Positions 49,181 to 63,238 of a stretch of 64,000 nt of DNA are shown piece after piece (position 1 is the first letter of the stretch; every line of letters begins with the position of its first letter). The stretch lies in NCBI RefSeq assembly GCF_016903815.1, contig NZ_CP069973.1; one strand, given 5' to 3'. This DNA comes from Escherichia coli. Lineage in GTDB: Bacteria; Pseudomonadota; Gammaproteobacteria; Enterobacterales; Enterobacteriaceae. Under the pieces are notes generated by a model. The model ran no database searches. It worked only from the letters and a program-made list of their open reading frames with translations, and was not told the origin of the DNA. The position numbers and the translations under genes are program-made.

Positions 49181-49457
49181 TCTGCAACTGGCAGTGAACG
49201 GCGAATACTTCGACCAGATGAAGCGGGGCGAGAAAACGGAAGAGTATCGCCTGTGTAATGACTACTGGAATAAGCGAATTATGTTCCGGGAGTATGACCG
49301 CCTGATTATCACAAAGGGATATCCGAAGCGCGACGATTCCAGTCGCAGAATTGATGTTCCGTATGGTGGATATGAAATCAAGACAATCATACATCCACAC
49401 TTCGGTGATAAACCGGTAAAGGTGTTCGCGATAAAGGTGAATATCGGCAATGAATAA
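49173..49457 (+). CDS. Hypothetical protein (possibly ASCH-like)
   Basis: 94-aa ORF overlapping the upstream stop. Confidence 0.35.
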   Translation: MANLQLAVNGEYFDQMKRGEKTEEYRLCNDYWNKRIMFREYDRLIITKGYPKRDDSSRRIDVPYGGYEIKTIIHPHFGDKPVKVFAIKVNIGNE

Positions 49458-49753
49458 CATCCTCGCACTCGCGGGGATTTCTTTTATCTGAACTCGCTAC
49501 GGCGGGTTTTGTTTTATGGAGATGATAAATGCACTTCCGAGTCACTGGTGAATGGAATGGAGAGCCATTCGACAGGGTTATAGAAGCAGAGGACATCAAC
49601 GACTGCTATAACCACTGGATGATATGGGCGCAGATAGCGCATGCAGACGTAACCAATATTCGAATTGAAGAACTGAAAGAACACCAAGACGCCTGATGGC
49701 GGTTTTTTATTGCCTGATTTGCAGGTTCGATTCCCTATTCGGAGATAGCACTC

Positions 49754-49954
49754 ATGCAACACGAACTACAGCCTGATTCACTGGTTGATTTGAAATTCAT
49801 CATGGCCGATACTGGCTTTGGTAAAACCTTCATCTATGACCGGATTAAGTCCGGCGACCTTCCTAAAGCCAAAGTTATCCACGGACGAGCAAGATGGTTA
49901 TATCGTGACCATTGTGAATTTAAAAATAAGCTCTTAAGCCGCGCCAATGGGTAA
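49754..49954 (+). CDS. AlpA-family excisionase / DNA-binding regulator (Xis) for prophage 1
   Basis: 66 aa, HTH; ends 74 bp before the att repeat at 50028; in the circular phage it would sit directly upstream of attP and the int gene at 10996. Confidence 0.65.
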   Translation: MQHELQPDSLVDLKFIMADTGFGKTFIYDRIKSGDLPKAKVIHGRARWLYRDHCEFKNKLLSRANG

Positions 49955-50027
49955 AATAGCGGGTAAAATATTTCTCACATCTAAAAAACACCATTCCAAT
50001 CAATCCCCTGCCGCTTCAAGTAGATGT

Positions 50028-50043
50028 CTGCAGGGGACACCAT
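50028..50043. repeat. att core repeat (copy of argW 3' end); right junction of prophage 1 and left junction of island 2
   Basis: 16-bp CTGCAGGGGACACCAT identical to argW positions 10820-10835. Confidence 0.8.
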
Positions 50044-50206
50044 CCCGCTGTACACCAACGTCTACCATTGTCTATAAATCCCATGTAAACATATAAAAAT
50101 AAAGAGATTTTATTCTCATGACGTCCATTTCCGTCTATTGAAATCAAGTAAATCTATGGGGCATAATTAGGGGCATTGCTGGTTCGATTGTATATGTGCC
50201 CCCAAC

Positions 50207-51493
50207 ATGTCCAGAAATACCCTCAACAAATTAACAGACCGTCAGTGCAAAGCAGCTAAGCCACGAGACAAAACTTATAAATTGTCTGATGGTGGTGGTC
50301 TTTATCTTGAAGTATCCCAGACCGGGTCGAAGTATTGGCGAATGAAGTATCGCCGCCCATCAGATAAGAAAGAAGACAGACTTGCTTTTGGTGTATATCC
50401 AACCATTAGCTTACAAGACGCCAGAGAAAAACGAGACAACGCCAAAAAGTTGTTAGTCAAGGGGATAGATCCCAAAGCAGAGCAAAGAGCAGCAAAAGCA
50501 GAAGAAAAAGGCGCATTCACTTTTGAGACAATAGGACGTCAATGGGTTGAAAGCCACCAGATGTGGAACGAAGACCACCGAAAACGCGTACTTAGAAGCC
50601 TTGAAATGTATATTTTCCCTCACATTGGCACTTCGGATATTCGCAAACTGGAGGCGATGACAATTTTACCTTTGTTTAAGAAGGTAGATGACGCCGGGAA
50701 ACACGATACAGCCAACCGACTTAAACAACGAGTTAAGGACATCATACATAGCGCCCGTCTGAGCGGCATTAAGACAGAAATCATCACGAATGATCTCGAT
50801 GTCCGGTTAATGCAATATGAAACTAAGCATCATGCCGCACTACATCCCAGAGATTTACCAGACTTTTTCACTCGATTGGGCAGCTTTAAAGGTAATCCTC
50901 TTACCCGCCTTGCCATTGAGCTAACCATGTTGACATTTGTTCGTTCAAGCGAGTTAAGGTTTGCCCGTTGGAAAGAGTTTGACCTTGATCGGGCTGAGTG
51001 GATTATCCCTAAAAAAAGAGAGCCTATCGATGGTGTGAGGTTTTCCACCCGTGGCACAAAAACGGGAAAAGACGAACATATCGTGCTTCTTAGCCGTCAG
51101 GCTGTTTCTATTGTAAAGCAGTTGAGAGAACTAAGCGGAAGCTACGATGTTGTGTTTCCGAATGAAAGAAACACCAAAGGCGTGATGAGTGAAAACACGG
51201 TAAACAAGGCATTACGCTTAATGGGCTATAACACGCAAGAGGACGTAACTGGACATGGATTCCGTGCCACAGCCTGTAGTTCCCTGATGGAGTCCGGTTT
51301 GTGGCAGGAGGACGCAGTAGAGCGCCAGATGAGCCACAAAGAATATAAAGACGTTAAAAGAGCCTACAAGCACAAGGCTGATTACTTAGAAGAGCGCAAA
51401 CTAATGCTTCAATGGTGGGCAGATTATCTGGACGCCAATCGAGAAATACATATAAGCCCTTACGAGTTCGGAAGGAGAACACGCCGTGACTAA
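50207..51493 (+). CDS. P4-family tyrosine integrase (second, distinct integrase)
   Basis: 428 aa; N-terminal MSRNTLNKLTDRQCKAAKPRDKTYKLSDGGGLYLEV... (P4-int arm-binding type) and C-terminal catalytic 'HGFRATA' region; sits next to the att repeat. Confidence 0.9.
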   Translation: MSRNTLNKLTDRQCKAAKPRDKTYKLSDGGGLYLEVSQTGSKYWRMKYRRPSDKKEDRLAFGVYPTISLQDAREKRDNAKKLLVKGIDPKAEQRAAKAEEKGAFTFETIGRQWVESHQMWNEDHRKRVLRSLEMYIFPHIGTSDIRKLEAMTILPLFKKVDDAGKHDTANRLKQRVKDIIHSARLSGIKTEIITNDLDVRLMQYETKHHAALHPRDLPDFFTRLGSFKGNPLTRLAIELTMLTFVRSSELRFARWKEFDLDRAEWIIPKKREPIDGVRFSTRGTKTGKDEHIVLLSRQAVSIVKQLRELSGSYDVVFPNERNTKGVMSENTVNKALRLMGYNTQEDVTGHGFRATACSSLMESGLWQEDAVERQMSHKEYKDVKRAYKHKADYLEERKLMLQWWADYLDANREIHISPYEFGRRTRRD

Positions 51494-52241
51494 GATGACA
51501 GGACTAGATGCGTTTTATAACGAGTCAGAAGATAAAATCTGGTTTGGTAATCTGATCAGCGAACTGGCAAGACTAAACAATGAAAATGAAAGAATGATCG
51601 CTGCCGCTATCTTAAGTAACTACAGATTGAGCAAAGCTAAACCAGATACTTTAGGGGGGCTGGGCTTTTATCAGTTCGATTGGGTATCAGGTTTTACAAC
51701 TAATGACGACTTTGAAAAGCAGTGTGTGGAGTTTTTAGGTCTTCTGGCTATGGGGCATGAATACAGGGAGAGCCCGATACCGGGGGAAGAAGGGACTTTC
51801 AACGTTAGGAAAGGGGAAGACTTTTTATATCACGATGATGAGGATGATTGGTATGGGTCTTACGATTCGTTTTATTTCAAGCGCTCCGAGGTTGTGAACT
51901 TCTTCCCAGAACTGGATATGAATGTTCCAGATAACGAACCAGAAATTGGAGCACTGTCAAAAAAAGTAGAAAGAGAACAAAACTGGAGAGGAAAAGATAC
52001 GGCTTTAAAGATGATCGCCGGAATGGCGATTGCCTTATTTGAATCAAGCAAAGATTTCCATAGTGGAGGAAACCTTAGTATCAATAGGGTTAGTGCCCAA
52101 GTAATAGAAAACAACATAATATTCGGGAACGATGAAGACAGCGATACCCACCCAGATACATTTCGGAGATTGCTAACGAACGCTTTGGATAAGTACGCCC
52201 CCAAATTTAAGAAAAAAGCAACCAAAAAGCGTCCAAAATAA
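51486..52241 (+). CDS. Hypothetical acidic protein, overlapping the integrase stop
   Basis: 251-aa ORF overlapping int2 by 8 bp; no recognised motifs. Confidence 0.45.
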   Translation: MTKMTGLDAFYNESEDKIWFGNLISELARLNNENERMIAAAILSNYRLSKAKPDTLGGLGFYQFDWVSGFTTNDDFEKQCVEFLGLLAMGHEYRESPIPGEEGTFNVRKGEDFLYHDDEDDWYGSYDSFYFKRSEVVNFFPELDMNVPDNEPEIGALSKKVEREQNWRGKDTALKMIAGMAIALFESSKDFHSGGNLSINRVSAQVIENNIIFGNDEDSDTHPDTFRRLLTNALDKYAPKFKKKATKKRPK

Positions 52242-52397
52242 AGGAAGGATGTTCCCAAATTGTGCGTTAGAACTAAAAAATAACGCCCAATTTGGGGTAA
52301 TTCTATTCCCAAAAATTTTTTCTCCAAATTCACAGAAAACTTAAAAAAACAATGATTTACTATCTCACATAGTCAAGCAACGTATTACGAGGTAGAT

Positions 52398-52589
52398 ATG
52401 AAAAAGTCGCTGATTCGGCTATCTGAGGTTTTGAAACGCACTGGCTATAGCAAGGCGTGGGTATATGCTCTGATGAGCCGAGGACAATTCCCCCAATCAG
52501 TCAAGATTGGTGCTCGCGCAATAGCTTTTATTGAAAGCGAGATCGATGACTGGATCGATCAACGTATAGCCGAATCGCGTAGTAACTAA
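52398..52589 (+). CDS. AlpA-family transcriptional regulator / excisionase (island 2)
   Basis: 63 aa; 'RLSEVLKRTGYSKAWVYALMSRGQFPQSVKIGARAIAFIESEIDDWI' resembles the AlpA HTH family. Confidence 0.65.
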   Translation: MKKSLIRLSEVLKRTGYSKAWVYALMSRGQFPQSVKIGARAIAFIESEIDDWIDQRIAESRSN

Positions 52590-52637
52590 AGAACAGAAAC
52601 AAACAGGATACAAACAATACGTTATTAGGTATTAAGA

Positions 52638-52829
52638 ATGCAGTTGAAACCTACCAATCAAAAGCTGAACGTAACCCATGTTGATTTTGAAACCTTCGCG
52701 GCACTGATTAGATCAGAGCCACAAAAGGTGAGCACCAGCACCTGGGTTTATGATGTGAAATCCACCAGCGGTGGAAAAGCTATCGGCATTGCCTCTGGCG
52801 ATGATTACTTAGTAATAGATCTGATTTAA
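52638..52829 (+). CDS. Hypothetical small protein
   Basis: 63-aa ORF; position only. Confidence 0.3.
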   Translation: MQLKPTNQKLNVTHVDFETFAALIRSEPQKVSTSTWVYDVKSTSGGKAIGIASGDDYLVIDLI

Positions 52830-52910
52830 TCGCACAAAAATTGTAGAGTAATTTGGGGAGACAGGAAGTCTCCTCCATATTACATTTTGGTACAACAGTA
52901 AGGGAATAAA

Positions 52911-53105
52911 ATGATTAATTACCTGACCGCTAAAGACGCAGCAGAATATCTTGGCGTCTGTCTGTCACGCTTCTATCAGTTAAAGCGATATATCCGAAGC
53001 TTTCCTCCCTATATAAATCAGACCATCAATGGACGCAAGCGCCGGGTGTGGCTTGCCTCCAGCCTTGATCAATTTGCCGACAGATTTCTGGGGGGACGAA
53101 AATGA
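52911..53105 (+). CDS. Small HTH DNA-binding protein
   Basis: 64 aa; 'LTAKDAAEYLGVCLSRFYQLKR' looks like an HTH; ATGA overlap with the next ORF. Confidence 0.4.
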   Translation: MINYLTAKDAAEYLGVCLSRFYQLKRYIRSFPPYINQTINGRKRRVWLASSLDQFADRFLGGRK

Positions 53106-53488
53106 GCACTCTTACACGCTCTCAGGTCGCCGCGAATATACGCGATATCCTACTAAGTGGCAGGAAGCTTACCCCAAAAGAGTTTGACGACATATTAAGG
53201 AAAGCCGGAAATCACGAACGTAGTCGCGTTTTAACGCTGTTACGCAACGATTGGGGAATTCCTGTTGAGCAGTTTAAAACAGAGGCGTATCACGTCACAG
53301 AACGCAATTTAGAAGCATACCACAGCGATAAAGACGAAACATTGAAGATCTGGAGGACGAACGCCAGATATGTAAAGACATTGCGTAAGGTAAACATAAC
53401 GTTGTCGTTGTTGCGTGGGCTGGTGGGTAAAGTGCCTGAAGACACGCTTAGAACTGTTTACAAGGGTATTGAAACCAAATACCTGTGA
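53102..53488 (+). CDS. Hypothetical protein
   Basis: 128-aa ORF coupled to the upstream HTH gene. Confidence 0.4.
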   Translation: MSTLTRSQVAANIRDILLSGRKLTPKEFDDILRKAGNHERSRVLTLLRNDWGIPVEQFKTEAYHVTERNLEAYHSDKDETLKIWRTNARYVKTLRKVNITLSLLRGLVGKVPEDTLRTVYKGIETKYL

Positions 53489-53556
53489 TTGACAAAGCAG
53501 AAAGCCGACTTTGCGAGAGTCGGCTTTGAAGCAATTGAAATATATGAACTTTACAC

Positions 53557-54609
53557 ATGGAATTATACGATAAAGACGCGAGTCTATCCACAAAATCACA
53601 AGCCGTAATCAATCACATCAATGGTCGCACATTAGCTTATGTGAGATCAGTTACGCACAAACGTAATGAATTAAAGGCGGAGAATAAACGCCAATCATCA
53701 AAGGCTAACCACTGCATACCACCAGCTTGGACAAAGAAGAAATGGCGTACAATGAGGCGAGCTTTGTTTACTCTGGATGTCGAATCAACTAGTGGTATCC
53801 CCTACTCCTTTACCTTCAGACCCGTTAAGGGAACAACGCCAGAGAAATTCAACAAAGCGTTAAAGGCACTTACCAGATGGTTGACTTCGAAAGGCAATCA
53901 GTGGGTTTACGTCATGGAGTGGGCTCAACACCAGTCAGAGCCGCATGTACACGCAATAATTATGGTGAACGAAAGAAGCATTAATGGGCAAGCAGGCAAA
54001 ATTGTCAGCAAATGGGTAACACTGGCAAACAATGCAATCCCATCAAATGTTCCTCCCCAGTGGGATCTAGATTTGAAAGGTCAGCAATATTCAGAGCCTA
54101 CAAGGTGTATAGGTAAACAGATTGATTACATGGCAAAACCCGAAACTAAGTTAAATGACTTTAATAGAGAGGCGAGCAAGAGCCTATATGATTGGTCAGA
54201 TGCCAACGTTTGGGGTTATTCGAATGGCTGGGCGCGGCATGAGATAAAAAAAGAAACACTTTCTATCACTGGCTTTCATGCTGTAAGACGCATACTAAAA
54301 GCCATTCAGGCATCAAGGAAAGACAACTACAAAGTTAAGCGACAGATACAGCGTACATTGAAACGACAAGACATAAATCGCTCACCAATCACCCCGTTCC
54401 AAGCACCGTTAATTAGCAAACACGATTGGGATTTATCAGTGATAGCGGTCACCAAAGAGGCAGAGACAGAGCGCAGGGAGTTACTATCCTCACAGACAAT
54501 AAACTCGAACAAAGTACAAACCCACCCGCTGTTAAGGATGTTAAGAAAAGCACGAGTGAGAGCATCCAGAGCCAGAAGAGAAAGCGGAGGTTATGACCAT
54601 TACTACTAG
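53557..54609 (+). CDS. Putative replication initiation protein (HUH-type Rep)
   Basis: 350 aa; candidate HUH motif 'PHVHAIIMV'; basic C-terminus; followed by GC-rich short repeats (54670-54730) in an AT-rich context. Confidence 0.5.
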   Translation: MELYDKDASLSTKSQAVINHINGRTLAYVRSVTHKRNELKAENKRQSSKANHCIPPAWTKKKWRTMRRALFTLDVESTSGIPYSFTFRPVKGTTPEKFNKALKALTRWLTSKGNQWVYVMEWAQHQSEPHVHAIIMVNERSINGQAGKIVSKWVTLANNAIPSNVPPQWDLDLKGQQYSEPTRCIGKQIDYMAKPETKLNDFNREASKSLYDWSDANVWGYSNGWARHEIKKETLSITGFHAVRRILKAIQASRKDNYKVKRQIQRTLKRQDINRSPITPFQAPLISKHDWDLSVIAVTKEAETERRELLSSQTINSNKVQTHPLLRMLRKARVRASRARRESGGYDHYY

Positions 54610-55407
54610 TAGTGACAGATCGTGACAAGGCAGAGCAAAAAACGACCAATATAAGAGAAATATCCCTGCCCAATCGCCAAAAGCGCGGAGCGCGGAGCGC
54701 GGCAAGCGCCGCGAGAGGCGCAAGAAGGCGAACCTATCCATTGAAACGGTCAGAAGAGCGCATCGCGCTCGATGACCGAAGTCCCCACTAACACCGTTAA
54801 CGAAAGATCAAAGTCTTAGAAAAAAATGACGTTTCTTTGAAGGGCTTCCATCCGTAAAAATCAAATTTTGAGATAAAGTACTTATAGAAATTAATCACTC
54901 TATAAGAGTGAGTTGACGTGAGTTTGAAGTGAGCAACATATTAAAAATATATATAATAATCAAACATATAATAACAACTACTGAGCAAAAATCACCAGAA
55001 AACAACGTCAACGTAACGTCACTCTGTAAGCACTTTTTCAGTCACTTTTTGGGTTGAATACACGTATAAATCCCCAACCATGAAATTTGAGCGCGTAAGC
55101 ACGACTCTGAAAGGCTTTTTATCTTTTAACCATTTAATATACCTGAGGTATTGAAGAAGATTCTGAGACATATACTAGAACTTTACCGTGCACGACTAAC
55201 AACATAAACGTTATATTTATATATAAATCAATGAGATAAATACATCCCCATCCAAAAAACAAGCATAACGCAAAATTGCGTTATCAACTTAAAAGGTACG
55301 ATTGAATCTGACAGTCTGCTCTGAGCGAAATGTGGGCACGTTCACCATAAGTCTCCAGATTGAAACGAAATGATAGTGTTAAATGTTCGATAGTTACTTT
55401 TCTAAGC

Positions 55408-56400
55408 TCAACGTTCGTAATAGTAATCCGACACCTCAGTAAAATCTATTTCCTCCCTAGAAAGTAATGATTCCATCTCATCTAGTTTATCGATTTGAGG
55501 CAAAACACTTGTTGGTGAAATCACAACATTAAAGTCCTCATTATATCGGTGACCTACCCTTGTGAGCTCTTTACCTAATTGCAACAATATATAATCACGT
55601 AAAATAAGTTGATTCCGTCTAAATCGAATAAGACGATAGTAATGGAAGAAATCAGAACATTTTGATGAATCATAATTTCTACCATTCCACCCGGTTTTCC
55701 TCGTAGCTCGGAATAATGCTTGCTCTTGCGTATTTTTCCAAATGCTAAAATCAAAGTGACTTTTCGGGTTAGGATTTTCGTATGTTGCTTGAGGATAAAA
55801 ATTAGTAACACCAAATTGATGCTTGTCAATGATCTTTAAAGTCCGATTTTGTTCAGACAACATCCGCCTTAAGGACCTAGGAATTTCGAAACGCATTAGT
55901 TTGTTTTTATCCAAGATTCTTAATTCTCTTGGAAGCATCTCATGATCCCGTTCTAAATATCTTTCACACCGTTTCGGCACATACTGAAAATACACTGAAA
56001 AAAAACAAAATATATTATCAGAAACGAGAGGAGTAATATGTATTTTTTCTTGCTCAGGAACGTTTTGAACAAAATAGTATGCCGTTCCTTGCCAAATCAA
56101 CGATTGCGCTACTGCCTCCACCAATTCACGTATTGTTTCATCTACCGAGTATTTCCTATATCTAGCTTGTAAATTTCCAAACATTTTACGTATGAGTTCT
56201 TCGTCGTTAGTTTCGACTTGAAACAAATTGGTATCACCGTGATTTACAAAATTAAAAACTCTAGCAAAATCCTCATAAAACATCCTTTGATAGAAACCTG
56301 GTCGTTCATTCTTAGACTTGGTCAATAGTCTATCAACAAAACTTAATTGCTCAGGATCGACGCTATAACCGTAAAGGGGTATATTCTTGATAATTTTCAT
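55408..56400 (-). CDS. Uncharacterised soluble protein, second gene of a candidate two-gene accessory (defence?) operon
   Basis: 330-aa ORF, ATG at 56400 with AGGA 7 nt upstream; ATGA overlap with the upstream gene stop; AT-rich; no family motif recognised by eye. Confidence 0.6.
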   Translation of the reverse strand: MKIIKNIPLYGYSVDPEQLSFVDRLLTKSKNERPGFYQRMFYEDFARVFNFVNHGDTNLFQVETNDEELIRKMFGNLQARYRKYSVDETIRELVEAVAQSLIWQGTAYYFVQNVPEQEKIHITPLVSDNIFCFFSVYFQYVPKRCERYLERDHEMLPRELRILDKNKLMRFEIPRSLRRMLSEQNRTLKIIDKHQFGVTNFYPQATYENPNPKSHFDFSIWKNTQEQALFRATRKTGWNGRNYDSSKCSDFFHYYRLIRFRRNQLILRDYILLQLGKELTRVGHRYNEDFNVVISPTSVLPQIDKLDEMESLLSREEIDFTEVSDYYYER

Positions 56401-58862
56401 TCAAAATCCTTATCGTATTCCACGCCAAAACGACGAGCCAACTCACTAACATGGTAATCGATCTTGAAGTCAATTTGCTCGAGTTGCGGGAAAATTTCGA
56501 GAGCACAAAAGAGATGCGATGCATCTGAATGGGAGTTTAAGAACTCTCTGACAACTTTGTTCGTATGAGATTTCCCTCGATTCATTCCCATTTGATCGCT
56601 AAAGCCATCATGTCTTGCGCGGCGCTCAAATTCCATTTTCCAGTTAAGACGAATCATATCTCTCGGTGATGCGCACAAGCTGAAATTGCGCGGATTTGAA
56701 AGAATCATCATTCTCTTCAAATACTGCTGTTTGTTGGGAACAGACTCGAGCCAAGACTTAAACCTATCAAGTACTGTTTTAGATAGTTTTGCATTATCGA
56801 AATAAGCACTGTAAAGGATAGCAAAACCTAGAACTGACATCAGATCGTTGATCGCGGATGAAAGGAGATGCAGTCGAAACTCGTTGTTTATATCGAGTTT
56901 CGGATCTACAAATTTGGTATCTGATGCCAGCAATGAGAGAACCATGAACATAGGGAATACCTTGCTCAGTTTATTTTCATCATTCTGTTCAAGCGCATGT
57001 ATACATTCCTCAGCCAACTCAAAATATATCTGTCCAAAATGATCCGGTAGTTCATCATCTTGCTCTTGTTCAATGATATGTCCCACAATTTCCACCCTAC
57101 CAAGAATAGCTATAGCTTCATCCTGTGTAACGACAAACTGTTTGAGCATTTCAGCAATATTAATTTCTGGTAATGCGTATAGCTTTTCAGAGTAGTGCTC
57201 GTACTTTCTGTATCTCTCCAAGAGCAGAGAAAGTTCATTAAACCAATGGGGAAACTTCAAATGATTATGTAGGCTAGCGAGAACGACTTGCGTTGCGGCT
57301 TCCGGCATCTTCATGTTTATCAGTGAGTTAACGAAATCTGGAACCATGTTTACGTGAAAATCGCATACTTCTGGCAGAATTTTAGAATATTGTTGTAATA
57401 ACTTCTGAACCGCCAACTGCTGGACGTACTTTGGTTTGGATAATCTCTGTCCTTCAATCTCTTTTTCGAATTCGATACGTTCTACGATAAAGGCCAACTC
57501 AACCTGCAGAAAAGCAGGCAAAGTGTGTAGAGAGGTCTCTGTCCAGATATCATCTTTAAAGAACTGCTCCAATTCTTTCTCAAAAGTAATCATGCGGCGT
57601 AACATTTCAAGGCAAAGATTGCTGCCTAATGCAGCCCATGCATCCGCAATTCCAACTTTTATCACCTTTTCCTCAAAATAATTAACGACATCAGACGGTG
57701 TAAAGGCTTTTTCAATGATCGTCTTCATTTTCCGAAGTTCACGTATACCAATATCGAACTGAAACTGTTGTGCATAAGTTAATATACGAGATGAGAATAG
57801 ACTGATGAGATCCAACCCGAGCTTGAAATCACCGGCTTTGAATGCAAGTTCAATATGGCCTACCAACCTATTGATAATTTCATTCTCTAACCAAAGATAA
57901 TTTGGTTCTTCTTCAACCGTTAATTGGCTCCTTGTTTTTAAAGCAATGGATGTTACACTGTCGCCAGCTAAGAACCATTGCTTATGTTTTATTCGTCTAG
58001 GGAACCAGTAACTTTGATAATCAATTCTGTGTTTCTGATTAAGGTAATGAAGAAGTAATGCCGAATAAACATTACTGAGAGCAGGTAAATTATCTCCGAG
58101 TCCTACTTTTTCACATATCAGGCGATCATCAATGTAGTTTAACTGCTCAAAGGCCAAATGTGCGGCTTTAGAGTGATGATTAGCTAAAGATACTGAATTC
58201 TTGGGATTAGACGCACCTTCGATGTGTCGTGCAATTCGTGGGAGTATTTCACTTCGGGCTAACTGATTTAGGTCAAAAAAATTGAATAATCTTTGACCTA
58301 ATGGGAACAGAGCTAAGGAACTAACAAGTGTCAGCAATGTTCCCATTGCATAAACGAAAAGACCGGGTTCAACCCCGAACAAGTGGAGAGCAGTTGCACT
58401 AAGACAAAACACCGCAGAAAGCACTAAAGTCCGCGAATACACATTACCTACCTGCTCGGTAGTAAGCATTTGTATAATATCTCGCCGAAGTCTGGTATAT
58501 CCTGTACTTAGAATGATACCTATTGTAGCAAAGTATATTGAAAATATAGCGGTAAGTATCTGTGCGTACAACCTAAGTTGATCAATATTAAATTTTTTTT
58601 CATCATAGCTAAGAGGATGAAGCAAAATCGTATTATTCCGAATATAATCTTCAACAAAACCCAGTGCAAATAACGTTAATATGACCCATAACAAATTTTT
58701 TAAACCTACCAACGCAAAAGACATAAAAACATGAGCGTTAGACTTAGCTTTAAAAACAGACGTACGATGTATGTATGACGCACGTTCTAAAATAAATCTA
58801 ACCCTCACAAGATCTGTTCTTAATTTCCAGAACCACTTTTGAGAAATAAGCCAAACCTTCAT
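56397..58862 (-). CDS. Uncharacterised large membrane-anchored protein (four N-terminal TM helices plus ~600-aa cytoplasmic domain), first gene of the candidate operon
   Basis: ORF 56397-58874 (TTG) with first ATG at 58862 (about 821 aa); hydrophobic segments VFMSFALVGLKNLLWVILTLFALGF, LYAQILTAIFSIYFATIGIILST, RTLVLSAVFCLSATALHLF, LFVYAMGTLLTLVSSLALFPL; no Walker A, HNH or other obvious motif found by eye. Confidence 0.6.
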   Translation of the reverse strand: MKVWLISQKWFWKLRTDLVRVRFILERASYIHRTSVFKAKSNAHVFMSFALVGLKNLLWVILTLFALGFVEDYIRNNTILLHPLSYDEKKFNIDQLRLYAQILTAIFSIYFATIGIILSTGYTRLRRDIIQMLTTEQVGNVYSRTLVLSAVFCLSATALHLFGVEPGLFVYAMGTLLTLVSSLALFPLGQRLFNFFDLNQLARSEILPRIARHIEGASNPKNSVSLANHHSKAAHLAFEQLNYIDDRLICEKVGLGDNLPALSNVYSALLLHYLNQKHRIDYQSYWFPRRIKHKQWFLAGDSVTSIALKTRSQLTVEEEPNYLWLENEIINRLVGHIELAFKAGDFKLGLDLISLFSSRILTYAQQFQFDIGIRELRKMKTIIEKAFTPSDVVNYFEEKVIKVGIADAWAALGSNLCLEMLRRMITFEKELEQFFKDDIWTETSLHTLPAFLQVELAFIVERIEFEKEIEGQRLSKPKYVQQLAVQKLLQQYSKILPEVCDFHVNMVPDFVNSLINMKMPEAATQVVLASLHNHLKFPHWFNELSLLLERYRKYEHYSEKLYALPEINIAEMLKQFVVTQDEAIAILGRVEIVGHIIEQEQDDELPDHFGQIYFELAEECIHALEQNDENKLSKVFPMFMVLSLLASDTKFVDPKLDINNEFRLHLLSSAINDLMSVLGFAILYSAYFDNAKLSKTVLDRFKSWLESVPNKQQYLKRMMILSNPRNFSLCASPRDMIRLNWKMEFERRARHDGFSDQMGMNRGKSHTNKVVREFLNSHSDASHLFCALEIFPQLEQIDFKIDYHVSELARRFGVEYDKDFE

Positions 58863-59087
58863 TATATCAATCAAGTGATACCTGCCTTCTCATCTCTACA
58901 TGCAACATAAAAATGCTTACTATGGTGGCAAACAAAATCAAGAATCATATGTTTGAACACTTTTTACGCACGAATTATCCGGTGTAAGATACTTATAGTC
59001 AAATGGCAGGGCTAATCTCATCTGTATTGAGCTATTAACAGCCATATGTAAGACTAAGAAACGCGCCCAGCAAAGGCGCGTTCTGCA

Positions 59088-59264
59088 TCAGGTAAGTTTG
59101 CTGGGGTCTACGGTTTCCATCCAATCTGGAGCAATTCCCAAACGTTCCGCTATCTCTTCGTTGGTCATGTCTTCAGTTGAGAAATTAGCCAGAGAATCGT
59201 TAACTTCAGGATAGTCAGGGGAGAGTAACAGGTATTCCCGCAACGCTTTCAGATCTTTTTCCAT
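59088..59264 (-). CDS. Small hypothetical protein with downstream terminator
   Basis: 58-aa ORF (MEKDLKALREYLLLSPDYPEVNDSLANFSTEDMTNEEIAERLGIAPDWMETVDPSKLT), not in the ORF track; followed on its strand by hairpin aacgcgcc/ggcgcgtt (59056-59086). Confidence 0.3.
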   Translation of the reverse strand: MEKDLKALREYLLLSPDYPEVNDSLANFSTEDMTNEEIAERLGIAPDWMETVDPSKLT

Positions 59265-59431
59265 TTTAACGCTCCTTGTTTATTGACAGTCGAACGATGG
59301 TGAAGATTCTTGCCATCTCAAGTACAGGCAAGAAAATCCACCAGAACACCAAATTATCTCATAAGGTTAAATCGGTGTCGGGCTATTTCTTTCGGCTAGG
59401 TGAGTGTACCGCCTTAACCACCGGCAATTAT

Positions 59432-59560
59432 CATTGTCTCAATTGGGTATACCGTAATGACAAGGTGATACAAAGTCTCAATAGGGTTGTATAGGAACAT
59501 TTTGACTACACAAAATGCATTATGTATCATTTGCACTTATATTCACAACCCTATTGAGAC
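59432..59560. promoter_or_regulatory. Putative recombination (res-like) site with perfect 16-bp inverted repeat upstream of the serine recombinase
   Basis: gtctcaatagggttgt (59475-59490) and acaaccctattgagac (59545-59560) are perfect reverse complements separated by 54 bp; a related half-site 'tgtctcaattggg' lies at ~59437-59449. Confidence 0.5.
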
Positions 59561-59566
59561 AATGCA

Positions 59567-60193
59567 ATGAACGTTAGAATTTACTGCCGAGCATCAACTG
59601 AGGGGCAACACGCTGATCGAGCACTTACCAGCCTACGTGAATTTTCAAAATCAAAAGGCTGGCAGATTGCAGGAGAGTATATAGAAAATGCTAGCGGGGC
59701 GAAGCTTGAGCGCGTAGAGCTTATGCGGCTATTGTCTGAAGCCCAGTCCGGCGATCTGTTGCTAGTGGAAGCTATAGATCGTCTGAGTCGCCTAGAACAT
59801 AGCGCATGGGTCGAACTGAAAGATACGCTCAACCGAAAAGGGTTAATCATCGTATCAATGGATTTACCAACGAGCTGGCAGATGGTCGAGATGGCAGGCA
59901 ATGACCTAACCAGCGGCATCCTGAGAGCCGTAAATGCCATGTTGATTGATATCCTTGCCACAATGGCACGGCAGGATTACGAAACACGTCGTAAACGCCA
60001 ACAGCAAGGCATTGAGCGAGCTAAAAGCGAAGGAATATACATTGGCAGGGAGAAAAATCAGGAAGCCCGAGAGATCGTTAGAGAGATGTTGGAGCAAGGA
60101 GTAAAACCTGAACTCATCATGAAGGCAGCAGGAATCAGCCGAGCGACTTACTACCGTATAAAAAGTGAGCTGTCAGTCGTAAAATCAGAATAA
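59567..60193 (+). CDS. Serine recombinase (resolvase/invertase family)
   Basis: 208 aa; N-terminal catalytic region 'VRIYCRASTEGQ' with the nucleophilic Ser; C-terminal HTH 'ISRATYYRIK'. Confidence 0.85.
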   Translation: MNVRIYCRASTEGQHADRALTSLREFSKSKGWQIAGEYIENASGAKLERVELMRLLSEAQSGDLLLVEAIDRLSRLEHSAWVELKDTLNRKGLIIVSMDLPTSWQMVEMAGNDLTSGILRAVNAMLIDILATMARQDYETRRKRQQQGIERAKSEGIYIGREKNQEAREIVREMLEQGVKPELIMKAAGISRATYYRIKSELSVVKSE

Positions 60194-60327
60194 CCTTTGA
60201 AAGGTCGTCAGGCTTGTTTCATCTGCTAAAAGCCAGCATTTCTGACCATAATACCTGGGGGCACCTACTGGGGCACCCACCAAAATCGAAAGACAAATAA
60301 GTTATAATTCAATCTGTTAGTTTACTT

Positions 60328-60350
60328 TTCGATTCCTGCAGGGGACACCA
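60328..60350. repeat. att core repeat (third copy of argW 3' end); distal junction of island 2
   Basis: 23-bp TTCGATTCCTGCAGGGGACACCA identical to argW positions 10812-10834. Confidence 0.8.
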
Positions 60351-60790
60351 GATACCCTTCAAACCAAATCTACCTTCACCCCGTAAAAGATGGGTTTGGC
60401 GCACACTAGCCCTATATCTACTCATTTTTACTGCAACAGGTTGAAATCTCAGCACTGTCAGAAAGCGCTGATGACTAAACAGCCCTGGGCCGGGCGATGT
60501 AACCATCATACAGAATCCTGATAGCGAAATATGGCGTGACTCGATACTTCACTCTGCAATGCATTCCTTGATGAATTCGCAGGCCCGTGATACTCGGGAC
60601 AGGTCGCTGAATGACGACAATGTCCTGGAAATCAGCGAACCGCGTATCCGGAGTACATTTGAGCGACTGTACCAGAACATGAATGAGGCGTTTGGATTAG
60701 GTGATTATTAGTTGGGCTAAGCATTTTTGTATTATTATTTTCCGGTTGAGGGATATGGAGATATCGACAACAACCGGAAAAAGTTTACGT

Positions 60791-62038
60791 CTATATTGCT
60801 GAAGGTACAGGCGTTTCCATAACTATTTGCTCGCGTTTTTTACTCAGGAAGAAAATGCCAAATAGCAACATCAGGCAGACAATACCCGAAATTGCGAAGA
60901 AAACTGTCTGGTAGCCTGCGTGGTCAAAGAGTATCCCAGTCGGCGTTGAAAGCAGCACAATCCCAAGCGAACTGGCAATTTGAAAACCAATCAGAAAGAT
61001 CGTCGACGACAGGCGCTTATCAAAGTTTGCCACGCTGTATTTGAAGACGGATATGACACAAAGTGGAACCTCAATGGCATGTAACAGCTTCACTAATGAA
61101 ATAATCCAGGGGTTAACGAACAACGCGCAGGAAAGGATACGCAACGCCATAATCACAACACCGATAAGTAATGCATTTTTTGGCCCTACCCGATTCACAA
61201 AGAAAGGAATAATCGCCATGCACAGCGCTTCGAGTACCACCTGGAATGAGTTGAGATAACCATACAGGCGCGTTCCTACATCGTGTGATTCGAATAAACC
61301 TGCATAAAAGACAGGAAAGAGTTGTTGATCAAAAATGTTATAGAAAGACCACGTCCCCACAATAAATATGACGAAAACCCAGAAGTTTCGATCCTTGAAA
61401 ACTGCGATAAAATCCTCTTTTTTTACCCCTCCCGCATCCGCCGCTATGCACTGGTGATCCTTATCTTTAAAACGCATGTTGATCATCATAAATACAGCGC
61501 CAAATAGCGAGACCAACCAGAAGTTGATATGGGGACTGATACTAAAAAATATACCGGCAAAGAACGCGCCAATAGCATAGCCAAAAGATCCCCAGGCGCG
61601 CGCTGTTCCATATTCGAAATGAAAATTTCGCGCCATTTTTTCGGTGAAGCTGTCAAGCAAACCGCATCCCGCCAGATACCCCAGGCCAAAAAAGAGCGCC
61701 CCCAGAATTAGACCTACAGAAAAATTGCTTTGCAGTAACGGTTCATAAACGTAAATCATAAACGGTCCGGTCAAGACCAGAATGAAACTCATACACCAGA
61801 TGAGCGGTTTCTTCAGACCGAGTTTATCCTGAACGATGCCGTAGAACATCATAAATAGAATGCTGGTAAACTGGTTGACCGAATAAAGTGTACCTAATTC
61901 CGTCCCTGTTAATCCTAGATGTCCTTTCAGCCAAATAGCGTATAACGACCACCACAGCGACCAGGAAATAAAAAAGAGAAATGAGTAACTGGATGCAAAA
62001 CGATAGTACGCATTTCTGAATGGAATATTCAGTGCCAT
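60791..62038 (-). CDS. cscB: Sucrose:proton symporter (oligosaccharide/H+ symporter, LacY family)
   Basis: 415-aa 12-TM protein; translation matches my memory of CscB; adjacent to cscK and divergent cscA. Confidence 0.9.
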   Translation of the reverse strand: MALNIPFRNAYYRFASSYSFLFFISWSLWWSLYAIWLKGHLGLTGTELGTLYSVNQFTSILFMMFYGIVQDKLGLKKPLIWCMSFILVLTGPFMIYVYEPLLQSNFSVGLILGALFFGLGYLAGCGLLDSFTEKMARNFHFEYGTARAWGSFGYAIGAFFAGIFFSISPHINFWLVSLFGAVFMMINMRFKDKDHQCIAADAGGVKKEDFIAVFKDRNFWVFVIFIVGTWSFYNIFDQQLFPVFYAGLFESHDVGTRLYGYLNSFQVVLEALCMAIIPFFVNRVGPKNALLIGVVIMALRILSCALFVNPWIISLVKLLHAIEVPLCVISVFKYSVANFDKRLSSTIFLIGFQIASSLGIVLLSTPTGILFDHAGYQTVFFAISGIVCLMLLFGIFFLSKKREQIVMETPVPSAI

Positions 62039-62099
62039 AATTACCTGCCTGTCGTTAAAAAATTCATGTCCTATTTAGAGATAAGAGCGGCCTCGCCGT

Positions 62100-63023
62100 T
62101 TACTTCTCACCTTCCAGTTCTTGTCGACATGGCAGCGCTGTCATTGCCCCTTTCGCTGTTACTGCAAGCGCTCCGCAACGTTGAGCGAGATTGATAATTC
62201 GTCGCATTTCTCTCTCATCTGTAGATAATCCCGTAGAGGACAGACCTGTGAGTAACCCGGCAACGAACGCATCTCCCGCCCCAGTGCTATCGACACAATT
62301 CACAGACATTCCAGCAAAATGGTGAACTTGTCCTCGATAACAGACCACCACCCCTTCTGCACCTTTAGTCACCAACAGCATGGCGATCTCATACTCTTTT
62401 GCCAGCGCGCATATATCCCGATCGTTCTGTGTTTTTCCACTGATAAGTCGCCATTCTTCTTCCGAGAGCTTGACGACATCCGCCAGTTGTAGCGCCTGCC
62501 GCAAACACAAGCGGAACAAATGCTCGTCTTGCCATAGATCTTCACGAATATTGGGATCGAAGCTGACAAAACCTCCGGCATGCCGGATCGCCGTCATCGC
62601 AGTAAATGCGCTGGTACGCGAAGGCTCGGCAGACAACGCAATTGAACAGAGATGTAACCATTCGCCATGTCGCCAGCAGGGCAAGTCTGTCGTCTCTAAA
62701 AAAAGATCGGCACTGGGGCGGACCATAAACGTAAATGAACGTTCTCCTTGATCGTTCAGATCGACAAGCACCGTGGATGTCCGGTGCCATTCATCTTGCT
62801 TCAGATACGTGATATCGACACCCTCAGTTAGCAGCGTTCTTTGCATTAACGCACCAAAAGGATCATCACCGACCCGACCTATAAACCCACTTGTTCCGCC
62901 TAATCTGGCGATTCCCACCGCAACGTTAGCTGGCGCGCCGCCAGGACAAGGCAGTAGCCGCCCGTCTGATTCTGGCAAGAGATCTACGACCGCATCCCCT
63001 AAAACCCATACTTTGGCTGACAT
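62100..63023 (-). CDS. cscK: Fructokinase (PfkB/ribokinase family)
   Basis: 307 aa; PfkB signatures (N-terminal GxAxxD region, C-terminal 'DSTGAGDAF' motif). Confidence 0.9.
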   Translation of the reverse strand: MSAKVWVLGDAVVDLLPESDGRLLPCPGGAPANVAVGIARLGGTSGFIGRVGDDPFGALMQRTLLTEGVDITYLKQDEWHRTSTVLVDLNDQGERSFTFMVRPSADLFLETTDLPCWRHGEWLHLCSIALSAEPSRTSAFTAMTAIRHAGGFVSFDPNIREDLWQDEHLFRLCLRQALQLADVVKLSEEEWRLISGKTQNDRDICALAKEYEIAMLLVTKGAEGVVVCYRGQVHHFAGMSVNCVDSTGAGDAFVAGLLTGLSSTGLSTDEREMRRIINLAQRCGALAVTAKGAMTALPCRQELEGEK

Positions 63024-63128
63024 TTTTTTCCCTTAAATTCATCTGACTTACGCATAGTGATAAACCTCTTTTTCGCAAAATCGTCATGGATTTACTAAAA
63101 CATGCATATTCGATCACAAAACGTCATA

Positions 63129-63204
63129 GTTAACGTTAACATTTGTGATATTCATCGCATTTATGAAAGTAATGGACTTTATTTTTATAAAAGTTAACGT
63201 TAAC
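63129..63204. promoter_or_regulatory. Divergent cscKB/cscA promoter region with two copies of the 12-bp palindrome GTTAACGTTAAC (candidate CscR operators)
   Basis: GTTAACGTTAAC at 63129-63140 and 63193-63204 in the intergenic region between cscK and cscA. Confidence 0.5.
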
Positions 63205-63238
63205 AATTCACCAAATTTGCTTAACCAGGATGATAAAA

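What the first reader, a model, noticed from the sequence alone, without database searches (positions are those of the whole stretch)
50028..60350. Compact ~10.3-kb integrative island (int-AlpA-HUH Rep-cargo-resolvase) bounded by argW att repeats: satellite/PICI-like element
Between the second and third copies of the argW 3' end lies a self-contained element: a P4-type integrase (50207-51493), an AlpA regulator (52398-52589), small HTH proteins, a putative HUH Rep protein (53557-54609) followed by GC-rich repeats, the candidate two-gene cargo operon, and a serine recombinase with a res-like site. No capsid, tail or lysis genes are present, so it is not a conventional prophage. It resembles phage-inducible chromosomal islands or other integrative mobilisable elements that depend on a helper phage; the adjacent P22-like prophage is a possible helper.
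Basis: partly seen in the sequence, partly recalled or inferred. Interest (0 to 1): 0.65.

Follow-up and report, generated by a model that had tools for sequence, protein, structure and literature searches.

The report
Integrative rolling-circle island with defence cargo
This is an intact 10.3-kb mobile island in the argW tRNA site of E. coli that joins a phage-type integration module to the replication module of a small rolling-circle plasmid and carries a swappable, probably anti-phage, gene pair; it resembles a phage satellite, but nothing found here ties it to a helper phage.

Summary
Three copies of the argW 3' end (10820, 50028, 60336) bound a P22-like prophage and then a 10.3-kb island with the stated genes and no virion or lysis genes.

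The island belongs to a family of 7.7-11.9 kb argW elements. The backbone is in 220 of 5426 complete E. coli genomes and also in Klebsiella pneumoniae. I found no paper describing it.

The backbone has two parts:
- **Integration module:** P4-type integrase, an integrase-overlapping ORF and AlpA.
- **Replicon module:** HTH, a 128-aa protein, an HUH Rep, a conserved 530-nt ori-like region, a res-like site and a serine recombinase. Small circular Klebsiella plasmids and a 4.5-kb circular contig share this module.

Between the ori-like region and res lies a cargo slot. Relatives carry GAPS6 (a validated defence system), a DpnII-type nuclease, HNH, ATPases or GTPases there. Here it holds an uncharacterised 825-aa membrane protein plus a 330-aa partner.

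PICI, P4 and PICMI membership tests fail: no primase, terS or capsid genes, and no detectable cos/pac similarity. Only 26 genomes have the prophage-island tandem, so adjacency reflects a shared att site.

Horizontal movement is supported: the island is 99.9% identical across chromosomal flanks that are 96% identical. The transfer route is unknown.

The parts
50028..50043 (.). Left att copy. This is the 16-nt core shared with argW; in this strain it is the attR of the upstream prophage and serves as a hybrid attL of the island.
   Evidence: (D1: only 83% identity to the 23-nt island core)
50158..50205 (.). Cluster of three GGGGCA motifs (two direct, one inverted) just upstream of int; candidate arm-type integrase binding sites.
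   Evidence: Five of the 7 island copies lie at the two ends against a background of 0.34 per kb, and they are invariant in relatives.
50207..51493 (+). P4-type tyrosine integrase, 428 aa, intact.
   Evidence: It is 32% identical to the prophage IntS, with box I R, HxxR and Tyr aligned. The Klebsiella orthologue has Arm-DNA-bind_3, Phage_int_M and Phage_integrase domains.
51486..52241 (+). Integrase-overlapping ORF (8-nt overlap), 251 aa, function unknown; positional analogue of PICMI iolg.
   Evidence: homologues only inside this island family; iolg in PICMI
52398..52589 (+). AlpA-family HTH regulator/excisionase, 63 aa.
   Evidence: phrog_2790/66; PF05930 in the Klebsiella orthologue
52638..52829 (+). 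Conserved 63-aa backbone protein, unknown function.
52911..53105 (+). Small HTH (MerR/excisionase-like), 64 aa.
   Evidence: (weak HTH/excisionase hits)
53102..53488 (+). 128-aa protein that always precedes Rep; a conserved partner in the plasmid-type replicon module.
   Evidence: (33-46% identity to the ORF upstream of Rep on small replicons L027/L028)
53557..54609 (+). HUH rolling-circle replication initiator, 350 aa. HUH is at H130/H132 and the catalytic Tyr at Y191 in YxxK.
54610..55135 (.). Conserved non-coding region downstream of rep; candidate origin. It holds GCGCGGA heptad repeats, GC hairpins, AACGTC repeats and an AT-rich stretch.
   Evidence: conserved in all E. coli relatives up to the cargo boundary; ssDNA fold z -3.4 / -3.1
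56397..58874 (-). Cargo gene A: 825 aa, four N-terminal TM-like segments plus an all-alpha C-terminal domain; uncharacterised.
55408..56400 (-). Cargo gene B: 330 aa, soluble; overlaps A by 4 nt and is always its partner.
59088..59264 (-). Small conserved 58-aa ORF between cargo and res, with a terminator-like hairpin at 59059-59083.
   Evidence: phrog_35119, unknown function
59432..59564 (.). res-like site: three copies of TGTCTCAATWGGGT (two direct, one inverted).
   Evidence: (I14, I15)
59567..60193 (+). Small serine recombinase (resolvase/invertase type), 208 aa, with the catalytic YCRASTEGQ motif present.
60257..60280 (.). Two tandem GGGGCAC motifs near the right end; candidate arm-type sites.
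60328..60350 (.). Right att copy (attR), 23 nt identical to the argW 3' end.

Best explanation
The island is an intact member of an apparently undescribed family of small (7.7-11.9 kb) argW-specific integrative elements of Enterobacteriaceae. These elements are chimeras of two modules plus a cargo slot. Module 1 (int, an int-overlapping ORF, alpA) inserts the element into the 3' end of tRNA-Arg(CCT), restoring the tRNA, and excises it again. Module 2 is the replicon of a small rolling-circle plasmid: a small HTH, a 128-aa partner, an HUH Rep, a roughly 530-nt ori-like region downstream of rep, and a res-like site with a serine recombinase. Inferred life cycle: a signal switches on AlpA and the HTH regulators. 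Int excises a circle. Rep nicks the origin and replicates the circle by the rolling-circle route, producing multimers and single-stranded intermediates. The recombinase resolves multimers at res. The element has no transfer genes, so it must hitch-hike. The route I consider most likely is packaging of its concatemers by headful (pac-type) phages, as shown for PICMI satellites; conjugative mobilisation is the alternative. The slot between the ori-like region and res is a hotspot for anti-phage genes, exchanged by recombination in the conserved flanks. In this strain it holds a two-gene module (a membrane-anchored 825-aa alpha-solenoid protein plus a 330-aa partner) that is most likely a defence system of unknown mechanism. 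Shown here: boundaries, gene content, HUH nature of Rep, kinship of the replicon module with small plasmids, cargo swapping, and recent horizontal spread. Inferred: excision, replication, resolvase role, transfer route and cargo function.
Against: No excised or circular form was detected. The attP junction pattern gave 0 hits in IMG/VR and in JGI metagenome contigs. All 554 E. coli matches are chromosomal and single-copy, with none on plasmids. No oriT, cos or pac similarity was found, so the transfer route is pure inference. The cargo has no hit in PADLOC, NCBIfam, Pfam or PHROGs, and its fold matches only uncharacterised 'DUF2254' proteins. In this strain the island's left att keeps only 16 of the 23 core nucleotides, because the prophage is inserted between argW and the island. 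That may impair excision of the island on its own.
Confidence: 0.6

Rival explanations
1. It is a true phage satellite (PICI/PICMI-like). A helper phage, possibly the adjacent P22-like prophage or another pac-type phage, activates AlpA. The island then excises, replicates by rolling circle, and its concatemers are packaged into helper capsids at high frequency.
For: The int / int-overlapping ORF / alpA order matches PICMI, where int, iolg and alpA are needed for excision and the satellite is packaged as a concatemer without any capsid-remodelling gene. The size of 8-12 kb, the lack of structural genes and the defence cargo are typical of satellites. Tandems with P22-like or lambdoid prophages arose more than once: in this window, in the O157:H7 remnant and in CP027593. 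Four island copies (41.2 kb) are close to the 39.2-kb prophage unit; this is numerology only.
Against: There is no primase-replicase, terS, capsid-morphogenesis, Ppi/Rpp-like or anti-repressor gene. No DNA similarity to any phage was found. The Rep family is found on plasmids and not in phages. Only 26 of 220 island-bearing genomes have the prophage junction. IMG/VR hits are prophage calls from isolate genomes that run into the island, not virion DNA. AlpA/int modules are also common in non-satellite islands.
Confidence: 0.25
2. It is an integrative mobilisable element moved by conjugation. After excision the HUH Rep acts as a relaxase at its origin (as MOB_T/Rep-like relaxases do), or the element carries an oriT recognised by a co-resident plasmid or ICE, and single-stranded DNA is exported through the helper's type IV secretion system.
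For: HUH Rep proteins and relaxases are mechanistically equivalent, and there is a weak Pfam Relaxase (MobA/VirD2) match at E 0.022 over the HUH core. Relaxase-less islands that hitch on conjugative elements are reported to be frequent and to hold defence genes near oriT. The host lineage appeared, by my recognition of strain names only, to be the plasmid-rich ST410 group; this was not tested.
Against: No recognised relaxase, coupling protein or oriT was found. The ori region has no similarity to 72,556 plasmids. The related small Klebsiella plasmids are typed non-mobilisable by MOB-suite. MOB_T-type systems are known mainly from Firmicutes (established knowledge).
Confidence: 0.17
3. It is now a fixed, non-mobile defence island. 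The recombination and replication genes are relics, and its spread among strains is due to homologous recombination of the whole argW region.
For: The island is always chromosomal and single-copy. No attP junction was found. Decayed versions are fixed in O157:H7, with about 311 genomes. The region around argW is a recombination hotspot with mosaic flanks.
Against: All backbone ORFs are intact and the catalytic motifs are conserved in 220 E. coli genomes and in Klebsiella at 50% protein identity. The att repeats and arm-type motifs are conserved. The island is 99.9% identical between strains whose immediate flanks differ by 4% or are unrelated, with the break points at the att sites.
Confidence: 0.1
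4. It is a satellite of a filamentous (Inovirus) phage, like RS1 or TLC of Vibrio cholerae. Rep makes single-stranded circles that a helper inovirus packages.
For: The Pfam family matched (PF23343) is named for plectrovirus ORF2 and inovirus gene II proteins.
Against: No Rep homologue occurs in the phage collection. The closest relatives are on small plasmids. No inovirus genes or packaging-signal similarity were found. Integration uses a tyrosine integrase at a tRNA, not XerCD/dif.
Confidence: 0.03

Closest known systems
PICMI (phage-inducible chromosomal minimalist islands, Vibrionaceae; PMC10803314)
   Same: Small integrative island with int, an ORF overlapping the 3' end of int, alpA, one replication gene and a few unknown ORFs. 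It has no capsid-remodelling or packaging genes. PICMI multiplies by a rolling-circle-like route and is packaged as a concatemer, and it protects its host against other phages.
   Different: PICMI replicates with a DUF3987/DUF5906 primase and integrates next to fis. This island has an HUH Rep, a resolvase/res module and an argW att site, its int-overlapping ORF has no detectable homologue outside the family, and no helper is known.
Enterobacterial PICIs (e.g. EcCICFT073) and P4-like satellites
   Same: P4-type integrase at a tRNA-type site, AlpA regulator in the same orientation, about 10 kb, no tail or lysis genes, and a hotspot with anti-phage cargo.
   Different: This island lacks the primase-replicase (alpha), terS/Rpp, capsid-morphogenesis genes (Sid/Psu/Cpm), Ash/epsilon, delta and a cos site. 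Its Rep and resolvase are plasmid-type.
Small cryptic rolling-circle plasmids of Klebsiella (NZ_CP073059.1, NZ_AP022186.1 and similar, 5.3-6.3 kb) and a 4.5-kb circular metagenomic contig
   Same: Homologous Rep (24-30% identity), a homologous 126-128-aa ORF directly upstream of rep, a small HTH and a serine recombinase, in the same order.
   Different: The plasmids are free circles with no integrase, AlpA or att site and little or no cargo.
[quoted passage not shown]
   Same: Integrate into a tRNA gene with int/xis and, after excision, replicate with a rolling-circle Rep before transfer.
   Different: AICEs encode their own FtsK-like Tra protein for double-stranded DNA transfer and occur in Actinobacteria. 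No transfer gene is present here.
Relaxase-less integrative mobilisable islands (iOriT; bioRxiv 10.64898/2026.01.13.699239) and GMT islands
   Same: Small to medium islands without transfer machinery that carry defence systems, including GAPS6 in GMT islands, and depend on other elements to move.
   Different: Those are defined by an oriT or by the GMT protein trio. Neither was found here, and they lack an HUH Rep plus resolvase replicon.

Membership tests
PICI (SatelliteFinder definition, PMC10085698) | Integrase | tested here: met
PICI (SatelliteFinder definition, PMC10085698) | Regulator homologous to AlpA, MerR or Stl | tested here: met
   phrog_2790/66; PF05930 in the orthologue
PICI (SatelliteFinder definition, PMC10085698) | Primase-replicase module | tested here: not met
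   The only replication gene is an HUH Rep. No primase or helicase hit in PHROGs, NCBIfam or Pfam.
PICI (SatelliteFinder definition, PMC10085698) | Capsid-morphogenesis gene | tested here: not met
   No head or packaging PHROG hit for any island ORF.
PICI (SatelliteFinder definition, PMC10085698) | Small terminase subunit or other packaging redirection | tested here: not met
   no cos/pac DNA similarity to phages
PICI / any phage satellite | Induction, packaging and high-frequency transfer by a helper phage | not testable with these tools
   Only indirect evidence: attP junction absent from IMG/VR and JGI contigs; the prophage/island tandem is in 26 of 220 genomes.
P4-like satellites | Seven core components: int, psu, delta, sid, alpA, epsilon/ash, alpha | tested here: not met
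   Only int and alpA are present (definition).
PICMI (PMC10803314) | int + alpA + DUF3987/DUF5906 primase, integrated downstream of fis | tested here: not met
   int and alpA are present; there is no primase; the att site is argW.
PICMI (PMC10803314) | ORF overlapping the end of int (iolg), needed for excision | tested here: inconclusive
   A 251-aa ORF overlaps int by 8 nt. Homology to Iolg could not be tested, and there are no homologues outside the family.
HUH rolling-circle Rep superfamily | Motif I, HUH (metal-binding) and Y-containing motif III in the right order | tested here: met
   G80/T86, P129-H130-x-H132 and Y191-x-x-K194 are invariant in 13 homologues; Pfam PF23343 1.5e-6.
HUH rolling-circle Rep superfamily | HUH endonuclease fold | tested here: met
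HUH rolling-circle Rep superfamily | Nicking of a cognate origin and Rep-dependent replication | not testable with these tools
   A candidate origin at 54610-55135 is conserved and structured, and homologues are on small circular replicons.
tRNA-targeting P4-type integrase island | Direct repeats of the tRNA 3' end at both borders, integrase next to the tRNA-proximal end, tRNA restored | tested here: met
   In this strain the left repeat is shortened to 16 nt by the intervening prophage.
Integrative mobilisable element (conjugative hitcher) | Relaxase and/or oriT related to a conjugative helper | tested here: not met
   Only a weak Relaxase Pfam match at E 0.022; the ori region has no similarity to PLSDB plasmids; related plasmids are typed non-mobilisable. 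A novel oriT cannot be excluded.
Small serine recombinase / res system | Catalytic Ser motif, C-terminal HTH and a repeated binding motif next to the gene | tested here: met
   YCRASTEGQ at residues 6-14; phrog_125 2e-40; three TGTCTCAATWGGGT copies upstream. Whether it resolves or inverts was not tested.
Defence hotspot on a mobile element | Conserved flanks with variable inserts enriched in known defence genes | tested here: met
   At least nine different inserts in one slot. GAPS6a/b are above the curated cut-offs and validated. DpnII/MboI and HNH nucleases are also present.
Known anti-phage system (cargo of this window) | Match to a described defence protein family | tested here: not met
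   No PADLOC, NCBIfam, Pfam or PHROG hit.

The most novel reading that the evidence does not exclude
The island founds a new family of enterobacterial phage satellites. These use a plasmid-derived HUH rolling-circle Rep, not a primase-helicase, to make concatemers for headful packaging by pac-type (for example P22-like) phages. They use a resolvase to return to monomers. Their cargo slot delivers defence systems, including a new, widely transferred two-gene membrane-associated system (825-aa 4-TM/alpha-solenoid protein plus 330-aa partner).
Probability: 0.2. Interest if true: 0.75.

Novelty: new variant of a known kind. Interest (0 to 1): 0.5.

Why it matters
About 4% of complete E. coli genomes, and some Klebsiella pneumoniae, carry this backbone. 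By my recognition of strain names only, which I did not test, many of the E. coli hosts look like the carbapenem-resistant ST410 group. Current satellite, ICE/IME and plasmid finders would not classify the element, because it has an integrase and AlpA but a plasmid-type Rep and no primase, relaxase or packaging gene. It is a compact, tractable model for two questions. How do small islands without any transfer gene move? How are defence systems shuffled between strains? Its single well-delimited slot already holds one validated system (GAPS6) and several unknown inserts. That makes it a ready source of candidate new defence systems, first among them the 825+330-aa pair, which is 63-74% identical across alpha-, beta-, gamma- and deltaproteobacteria. 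If the element proves to be a satellite, it would show that satellites can be built from rolling-circle plasmids.

Tried and rejected
- **attP junction (excised circle or tandem):** the pattern TTTTCGATTCCTGCAGGGGACACCATCMCGC gave 0 hits in IMG/VR and 0 in JGI metagenome contigs. This is uninformative rather than negative, because E. coli is sparse there.
- **IMG/VR loci encoding Rep:** these are prophage predictions from isolate genomes that extend into the island. I rejected them as packaging evidence.
- **Whole-island megablast and distant blastn of the regulatory/ori region against phages:** only a 49-nt chance hit.
- **Ori region against plasmids:** nothing.
- **PADLOC on this cargo and on eight alternative cargos:** no significant system. 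GAPS6 was only recognised by the newer NCBIfam library.
- **Repeat search between prophage and island for a shared pac site:** the best match (D7, 17 of 19 nt, 35723 vs 60202) lies in the prophage region between the predicted lysis genes and the late-regulator genes, not in terS, and is at chance level. Rejected.
- **PDB sequence searches with Rep and its profile:** no hit; the fold search was needed.
- **Rfam on the island:** nothing.
- **Pfam on the 251-aa and 128-aa ORFs:** nothing.
- **Foldseek of cargo A against PDB:** only generic helical repeats.
- **Literature searches for this family:** no description found.

Full report
**Observation**

ARAGORN finds a single tRNA in the window, tRNA-Arg(CCT) (argW) at 10760-10834. 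The 15-mer CTGCAGGGGACACCA from its 3' end occurs exactly three times, at 10820, 50028 and 60336, with none expected by chance.

The right-hand copy shares 23 nt with the tRNA. The middle copy shares only 16 nt, CTGCAGGGGACACCAT. I recall from the literature on the IntS/TorI (KplE1-type) module that this 16-mer is its core; I did not check that recollection here.

The stretch 10835-50027 is a P22-like prophage. It has IntS at its left end, TorI at its right end, and a tailspike, ejection proteins, scaffold, portal and TerL. The segment 50028-60350 is the island of the finding.

The GC-rich repeats after Rep are real. The res-like site is real. None of the island ORFs matches a capsid, tail, terminase or lysis family.

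**Anatomy**

From left to right:
- A cluster of GGGGCA motifs at 50158-50205.
- A 428-aa P4-type integrase. It is 32% identical to the prophage IntS, with the catalytic Arg, HxxR and Tyr aligned.
- A 251-aa ORF overlapping the integrase stop by 8 nt. It has no Pfam or PHROG match, and its homologues occur only in this island family.
- AlpA.
- A 63-aa unknown ORF.
- A 64-aa HTH.
- A 128-aa unknown ORF.
- Rep.
- A roughly 530-nt non-coding region.
- A two-gene cargo on the opposite strand, 37% GC against 43-45% for the backbone and 47% for the chromosome.
- A 58-aa ORF.
- Three copies of TGTCTCAATWGGGT.
- A 208-aa serine recombinase with the YxRxSTxxQ catalytic motif.
- Two more GGGGCAC motifs, then the 23-nt att copy.

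Five of the seven GGGGCA motifs in the island sit within about 50 nt of each other at the two ends, against a background of 0.34 per kb. They are invariant in relatives. I read them as arm-type integrase sites; this is inference.

**Rep**

It fails to refute.
- Rep matches Pfam PF23343 (REP_ORF2-G2P) at 1.5e-6.
- An exhaustive HMMER scan of 1.84 billion representative proteins finds only 21 relatives, so the family is narrow.
- In an alignment of 13 full-length members down to 19% identity, the invariant columns are those expected of an HUH initiator: a G...T motif I, PHxH (H130, H132) and Y191xxK194.
- The AlphaFold model has a confident core, with pLDDT 80-95 over residues 55-230.
- The long 350-aa reading frame is supported by full-length alignment to the 50%-identical Klebsiella orthologues.

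**The replicon module comes from small plasmids**

The distant Rep homologues are not found in phages: tblastn against 50,697 phage records gives no match. They are on small replicons.
- One is a 4,572-bp assembly contig whose ends overlap by 30 nt, so it is a circle.
- One is a 5,565-bp contig.
- Several are complete circular Klebsiella plasmids of 5.3-6.3 kb, typed non-mobilisable.

These replicons share more than Rep with the island. They carry a 126-127-aa ORF immediately upstream of rep that is 33-46% identical to the island's 128-aa ORF, a small HTH protein and a serine recombinase.

So the right two-thirds of the island backbone (HTH, 128-aa ORF, Rep, ori region, res, recombinase) is a small rolling-circle plasmid replicon with a multimer-resolution system. 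It is fused to an int / int-overlapping ORF / alpA module.

The non-coding region after rep (54610-55135) is conserved in all E. coli relatives up to a sharp boundary where the cargos diverge. It contains heptad repeats (GCGCGGA, three copies here and two in relatives), GC hairpins and AACGTC repeats. As single-stranded DNA it folds better than shuffled controls on both strands, with z -3.4 and -3.1. It is the obvious origin candidate. The nick site cannot be assigned from sequence.

**A family with a cargo slot**

Counts in complete E. coli genomes:

| Query | Genomes matching at 80% coverage or more |
|---|---|
| Whole island at about 100% identity | 145 of 5426 |
| Backbone alone (50045-55130) | 220 of 5426 |
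| Prophage/island junction (49380-50700) | 26 of 5426 |

The backbone is always single-copy and always chromosomal. A further 311 or so genomes, mostly O157:H7, keep a decayed remnant. Klebsiella pneumoniae has the same architecture at the syntenic mlaA-yfdC-argW site, with Rep 50% identical.

Att-to-att sizes range from 7.7 to 11.9 kb. The differences are concentrated in one slot between the ori region and res. Its contents in different genomes are:
- The 825+330-aa pair (this window).
- Two other hypothetical proteins.
- A P-loop ATPase of the Sll1717 family.
- A ParA-like ATPase.
- A GTPase plus a small protein.
- A 470-aa protein.
- An HNH protein plus two small ones.
- A DpnII/MboI-type nuclease.
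- In strain TUM3755, gapS6a/gapS6b.

The GapS6 proteins score above the curated NCBIfam cut-offs. GAPS6 was shown experimentally to protect E. coli against phages (bioRxiv 10.1101/2023.03.28.534373). The slot therefore behaves like the defence hotspots described in P2, P4 and PICI elements.

**The cargo of this window**

Neither protein matches PADLOC, NCBIfam, Pfam or PHROGs.

Cargo A has four TM-like segments in residues 47-192 and a confidently modelled all-alpha C-terminal domain. That domain resembles only uncharacterised 800-890-aa 'DUF2254' proteins found across bacterial phyla, and nothing informative in the PDB.

More than 300 homologues are 63-74% identical across alpha-, beta-, gamma- and deltaproteobacteria. 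That pattern fits frequent horizontal transfer under strong constraint.

In every context examined the 330-aa partner follows cargo A, and the pair sits in mobile, defence-rich surroundings:
- A Pectobacterium island that has P4-type integrase, AlpA, Ash and Ogr/Delta genes, next to SIR2 and toxin-antitoxin genes.
- The integrase end of a lambdoid prophage.
- An Enterobacter island with serine recombinases, a TIR protein and a putative AbiC.
- Beside a large serine recombinase in an alphaproteobacterium.

A defence function is the best guess by association. The mechanism is unknown.

**Is it mobile?**

In strain M9682-C1 (O6:H16) the stretch from int to the cargo is 99.94% and 99.90% identical to the window. 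The 4 kb of chromosome to the left is only 96.0-96.7% identical. The right flank is unrelated, with no csc genes. The res/recombinase end is only 96% identical.

In TUM3755 the left backbone is 98.2% identical, the cargo is replaced, and the right backbone is 99.7% identical. In strain ES11 island and flanks are 100% identical, and the island lies directly at argW with no prophage.

This is the signature of recent horizontal movement ending at the att sites, plus modular reassortment inside the family.

Direct evidence for an excised form is lacking. The attP junction was not found in IMG/VR or JGI metagenome contigs, and no plasmid record carries the island.

**Satellite or not?**

The published core of a PICI is integrase, AlpA/MerR/Stl regulator, primase-replicase, capsid-morphogenesis gene and small terminase (PMC10085698). 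Only the first two are present here.

P4-like elements need psu, delta, sid, epsilon and alpha as well. None is present.

The nearest described analogue is the PICMI family (PMC10803314). PICMIs have int, an int-overlapping gene required for excision, alpA and a single replication gene. They have no capsid genes, multiply by a rolling-circle-like route and are packaged as concatemers. But PICMI is defined by a DUF3987/DUF5906 primase and integration at fis, so membership fails there too.

No cos, pac or other similarity to phage DNA or to plasmid oriT regions was detected.

The proposed helper is not specifically associated with the island. The prophage/island junction occurs in 26 genomes against 220 with the backbone. 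Tandems with other prophages also arose and decayed independently: P22-like in O157:H7 and lambdoid in CP027593. That is what two elements competing for one att site would produce.

The satellite label therefore describes a plausible way of working, not a demonstrated membership.

**A detail specific to this strain**

The prophage inserted between argW and the island, so the island's left att now has prophage sequence (GTAGATGT) where the tRNA-derived TTCGATTC used to be. Only 16 of the 23 core nucleotides are kept.

If the island integrase needs that half-site, the island could be locked in. Alternatively it could leave only together with the prophage, as a roughly 49.5-kb segment, by recombination between argW and the right att. 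This is inference and is easy to test by PCR.

**Verdict**

The finding is real and the element is intact. It is best described as a new variant of a known kind: a small tRNA-integrating, hitch-hiking island built from a P4-type int/AlpA module and a rolling-circle plasmid replicon with resolvase, serving as a carrier of exchangeable anti-phage cargo.

My probabilities for its transfer route or mobility status are:
- 0.25 for a true helper-induced satellite.
- 0.17 for conjugative mobilisation.
- 0.10 for a now-immobile relic.
- 0.03 for a filamentous-phage satellite.
- The remainder for opportunistic generalised transduction or an unrecognised route.

I found no paper describing the family. 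NCBI already names the protein a 'rolling circle replication-associated protein'.

Noticed in passing
window 49719-49734 (and 10805-10820): A second, 16-nt exact fragment of argW (TTGCAGGTTCGATTCC, the part just upstream of the att core) lies about 20 nt upstream of torI, 300 nt inside the prophage's right end. It is too long to be chance. It may be a relic of an earlier integration event or an IntS/TorI binding feature.
   Followed up: no
L007 (O157:H7 TW14359, NC_013008.1 3250272-3266520): About 311 O157:H7-type genomes carry a deletion that fuses a P22-like prophage remnant (intS, ejection proteins, truncated tail-needle knob) to the C-terminal 215 aa of Rep, followed by a 470-aa cargo, the 58-aa ORF, the recombinase and attR. 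This remnant explains why PHROGs holds 'phage' families phrog_30534 and phrog_35119 for island proteins.
   Followed up: partly
L023 (E. coli CP027593.1): An independent decay product: the end of a lambdoid prophage (Ead/Ea22, DUF551) is fused to a truncated Rep, and the cargo slot holds a DpnII/MboI-type nuclease plus a 232-aa protein.
   Followed up: partly
window 56397-58874 and homologues P0010-P0128: Cargo protein A is unusually well conserved, at 63-74% identity over 825 aa and with mean column identity of 79% in 36 sequences, across four proteobacterial classes. It belongs to a structurally recognisable but uncharacterised family present in Firmicutes, Actinobacteria and Bacteroidota as well.
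   Followed up: partly
window 54683-54703: The GC-rich heptad GCGCGGA is present in three tandem copies here and in two copies in all five E. coli relatives aligned, so there is a copy-number polymorphism inside the putative origin.
   Followed up: no
L033 13540-15898 and L002 10555-12913: Some islands carry an extra segment between the recombinase gene and attR: a 263-aa hypothetical protein and a partial second recombinase gene. This suggests recombination between two island variants at or near res, and possibly a second cargo position.
   Followed up: no
window 60351-64000: Right of the island lie a DUF4942 gene fragment (a relic of yet another element) and the csc sucrose genes (cscB, cscK, cscA). 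Other strains have dsdC/dsdX directly after attR, so the argW-dsd interval is a layered integration hotspot.
   Followed up: partly
L028 (Logan ERR14173576 contig, 4572 bp): A circular 4.5-kb replicon (30-nt terminal overlap) encodes only a resolvase, an HTH, a 127-aa ORF, Rep and two small ORFs. It is a minimal free-living relative of the island's replicon module.
   Followed up: partly
E. coli records H2, H3, H39 and H47: Several copies of the island are interrupted by IS elements (IS2, ISSen4, ISEc23), which shows ongoing decay in some lineages.
   Followed up: no
window 10835-50027 vs 50028-60350: Four island units (41.2 kb) are close to the prophage unit length (39.2 kb), about a P22-type headful. 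Island sizes in relatives vary from 7.7 to 11.9 kb, so this may be coincidence.
   Followed up: no
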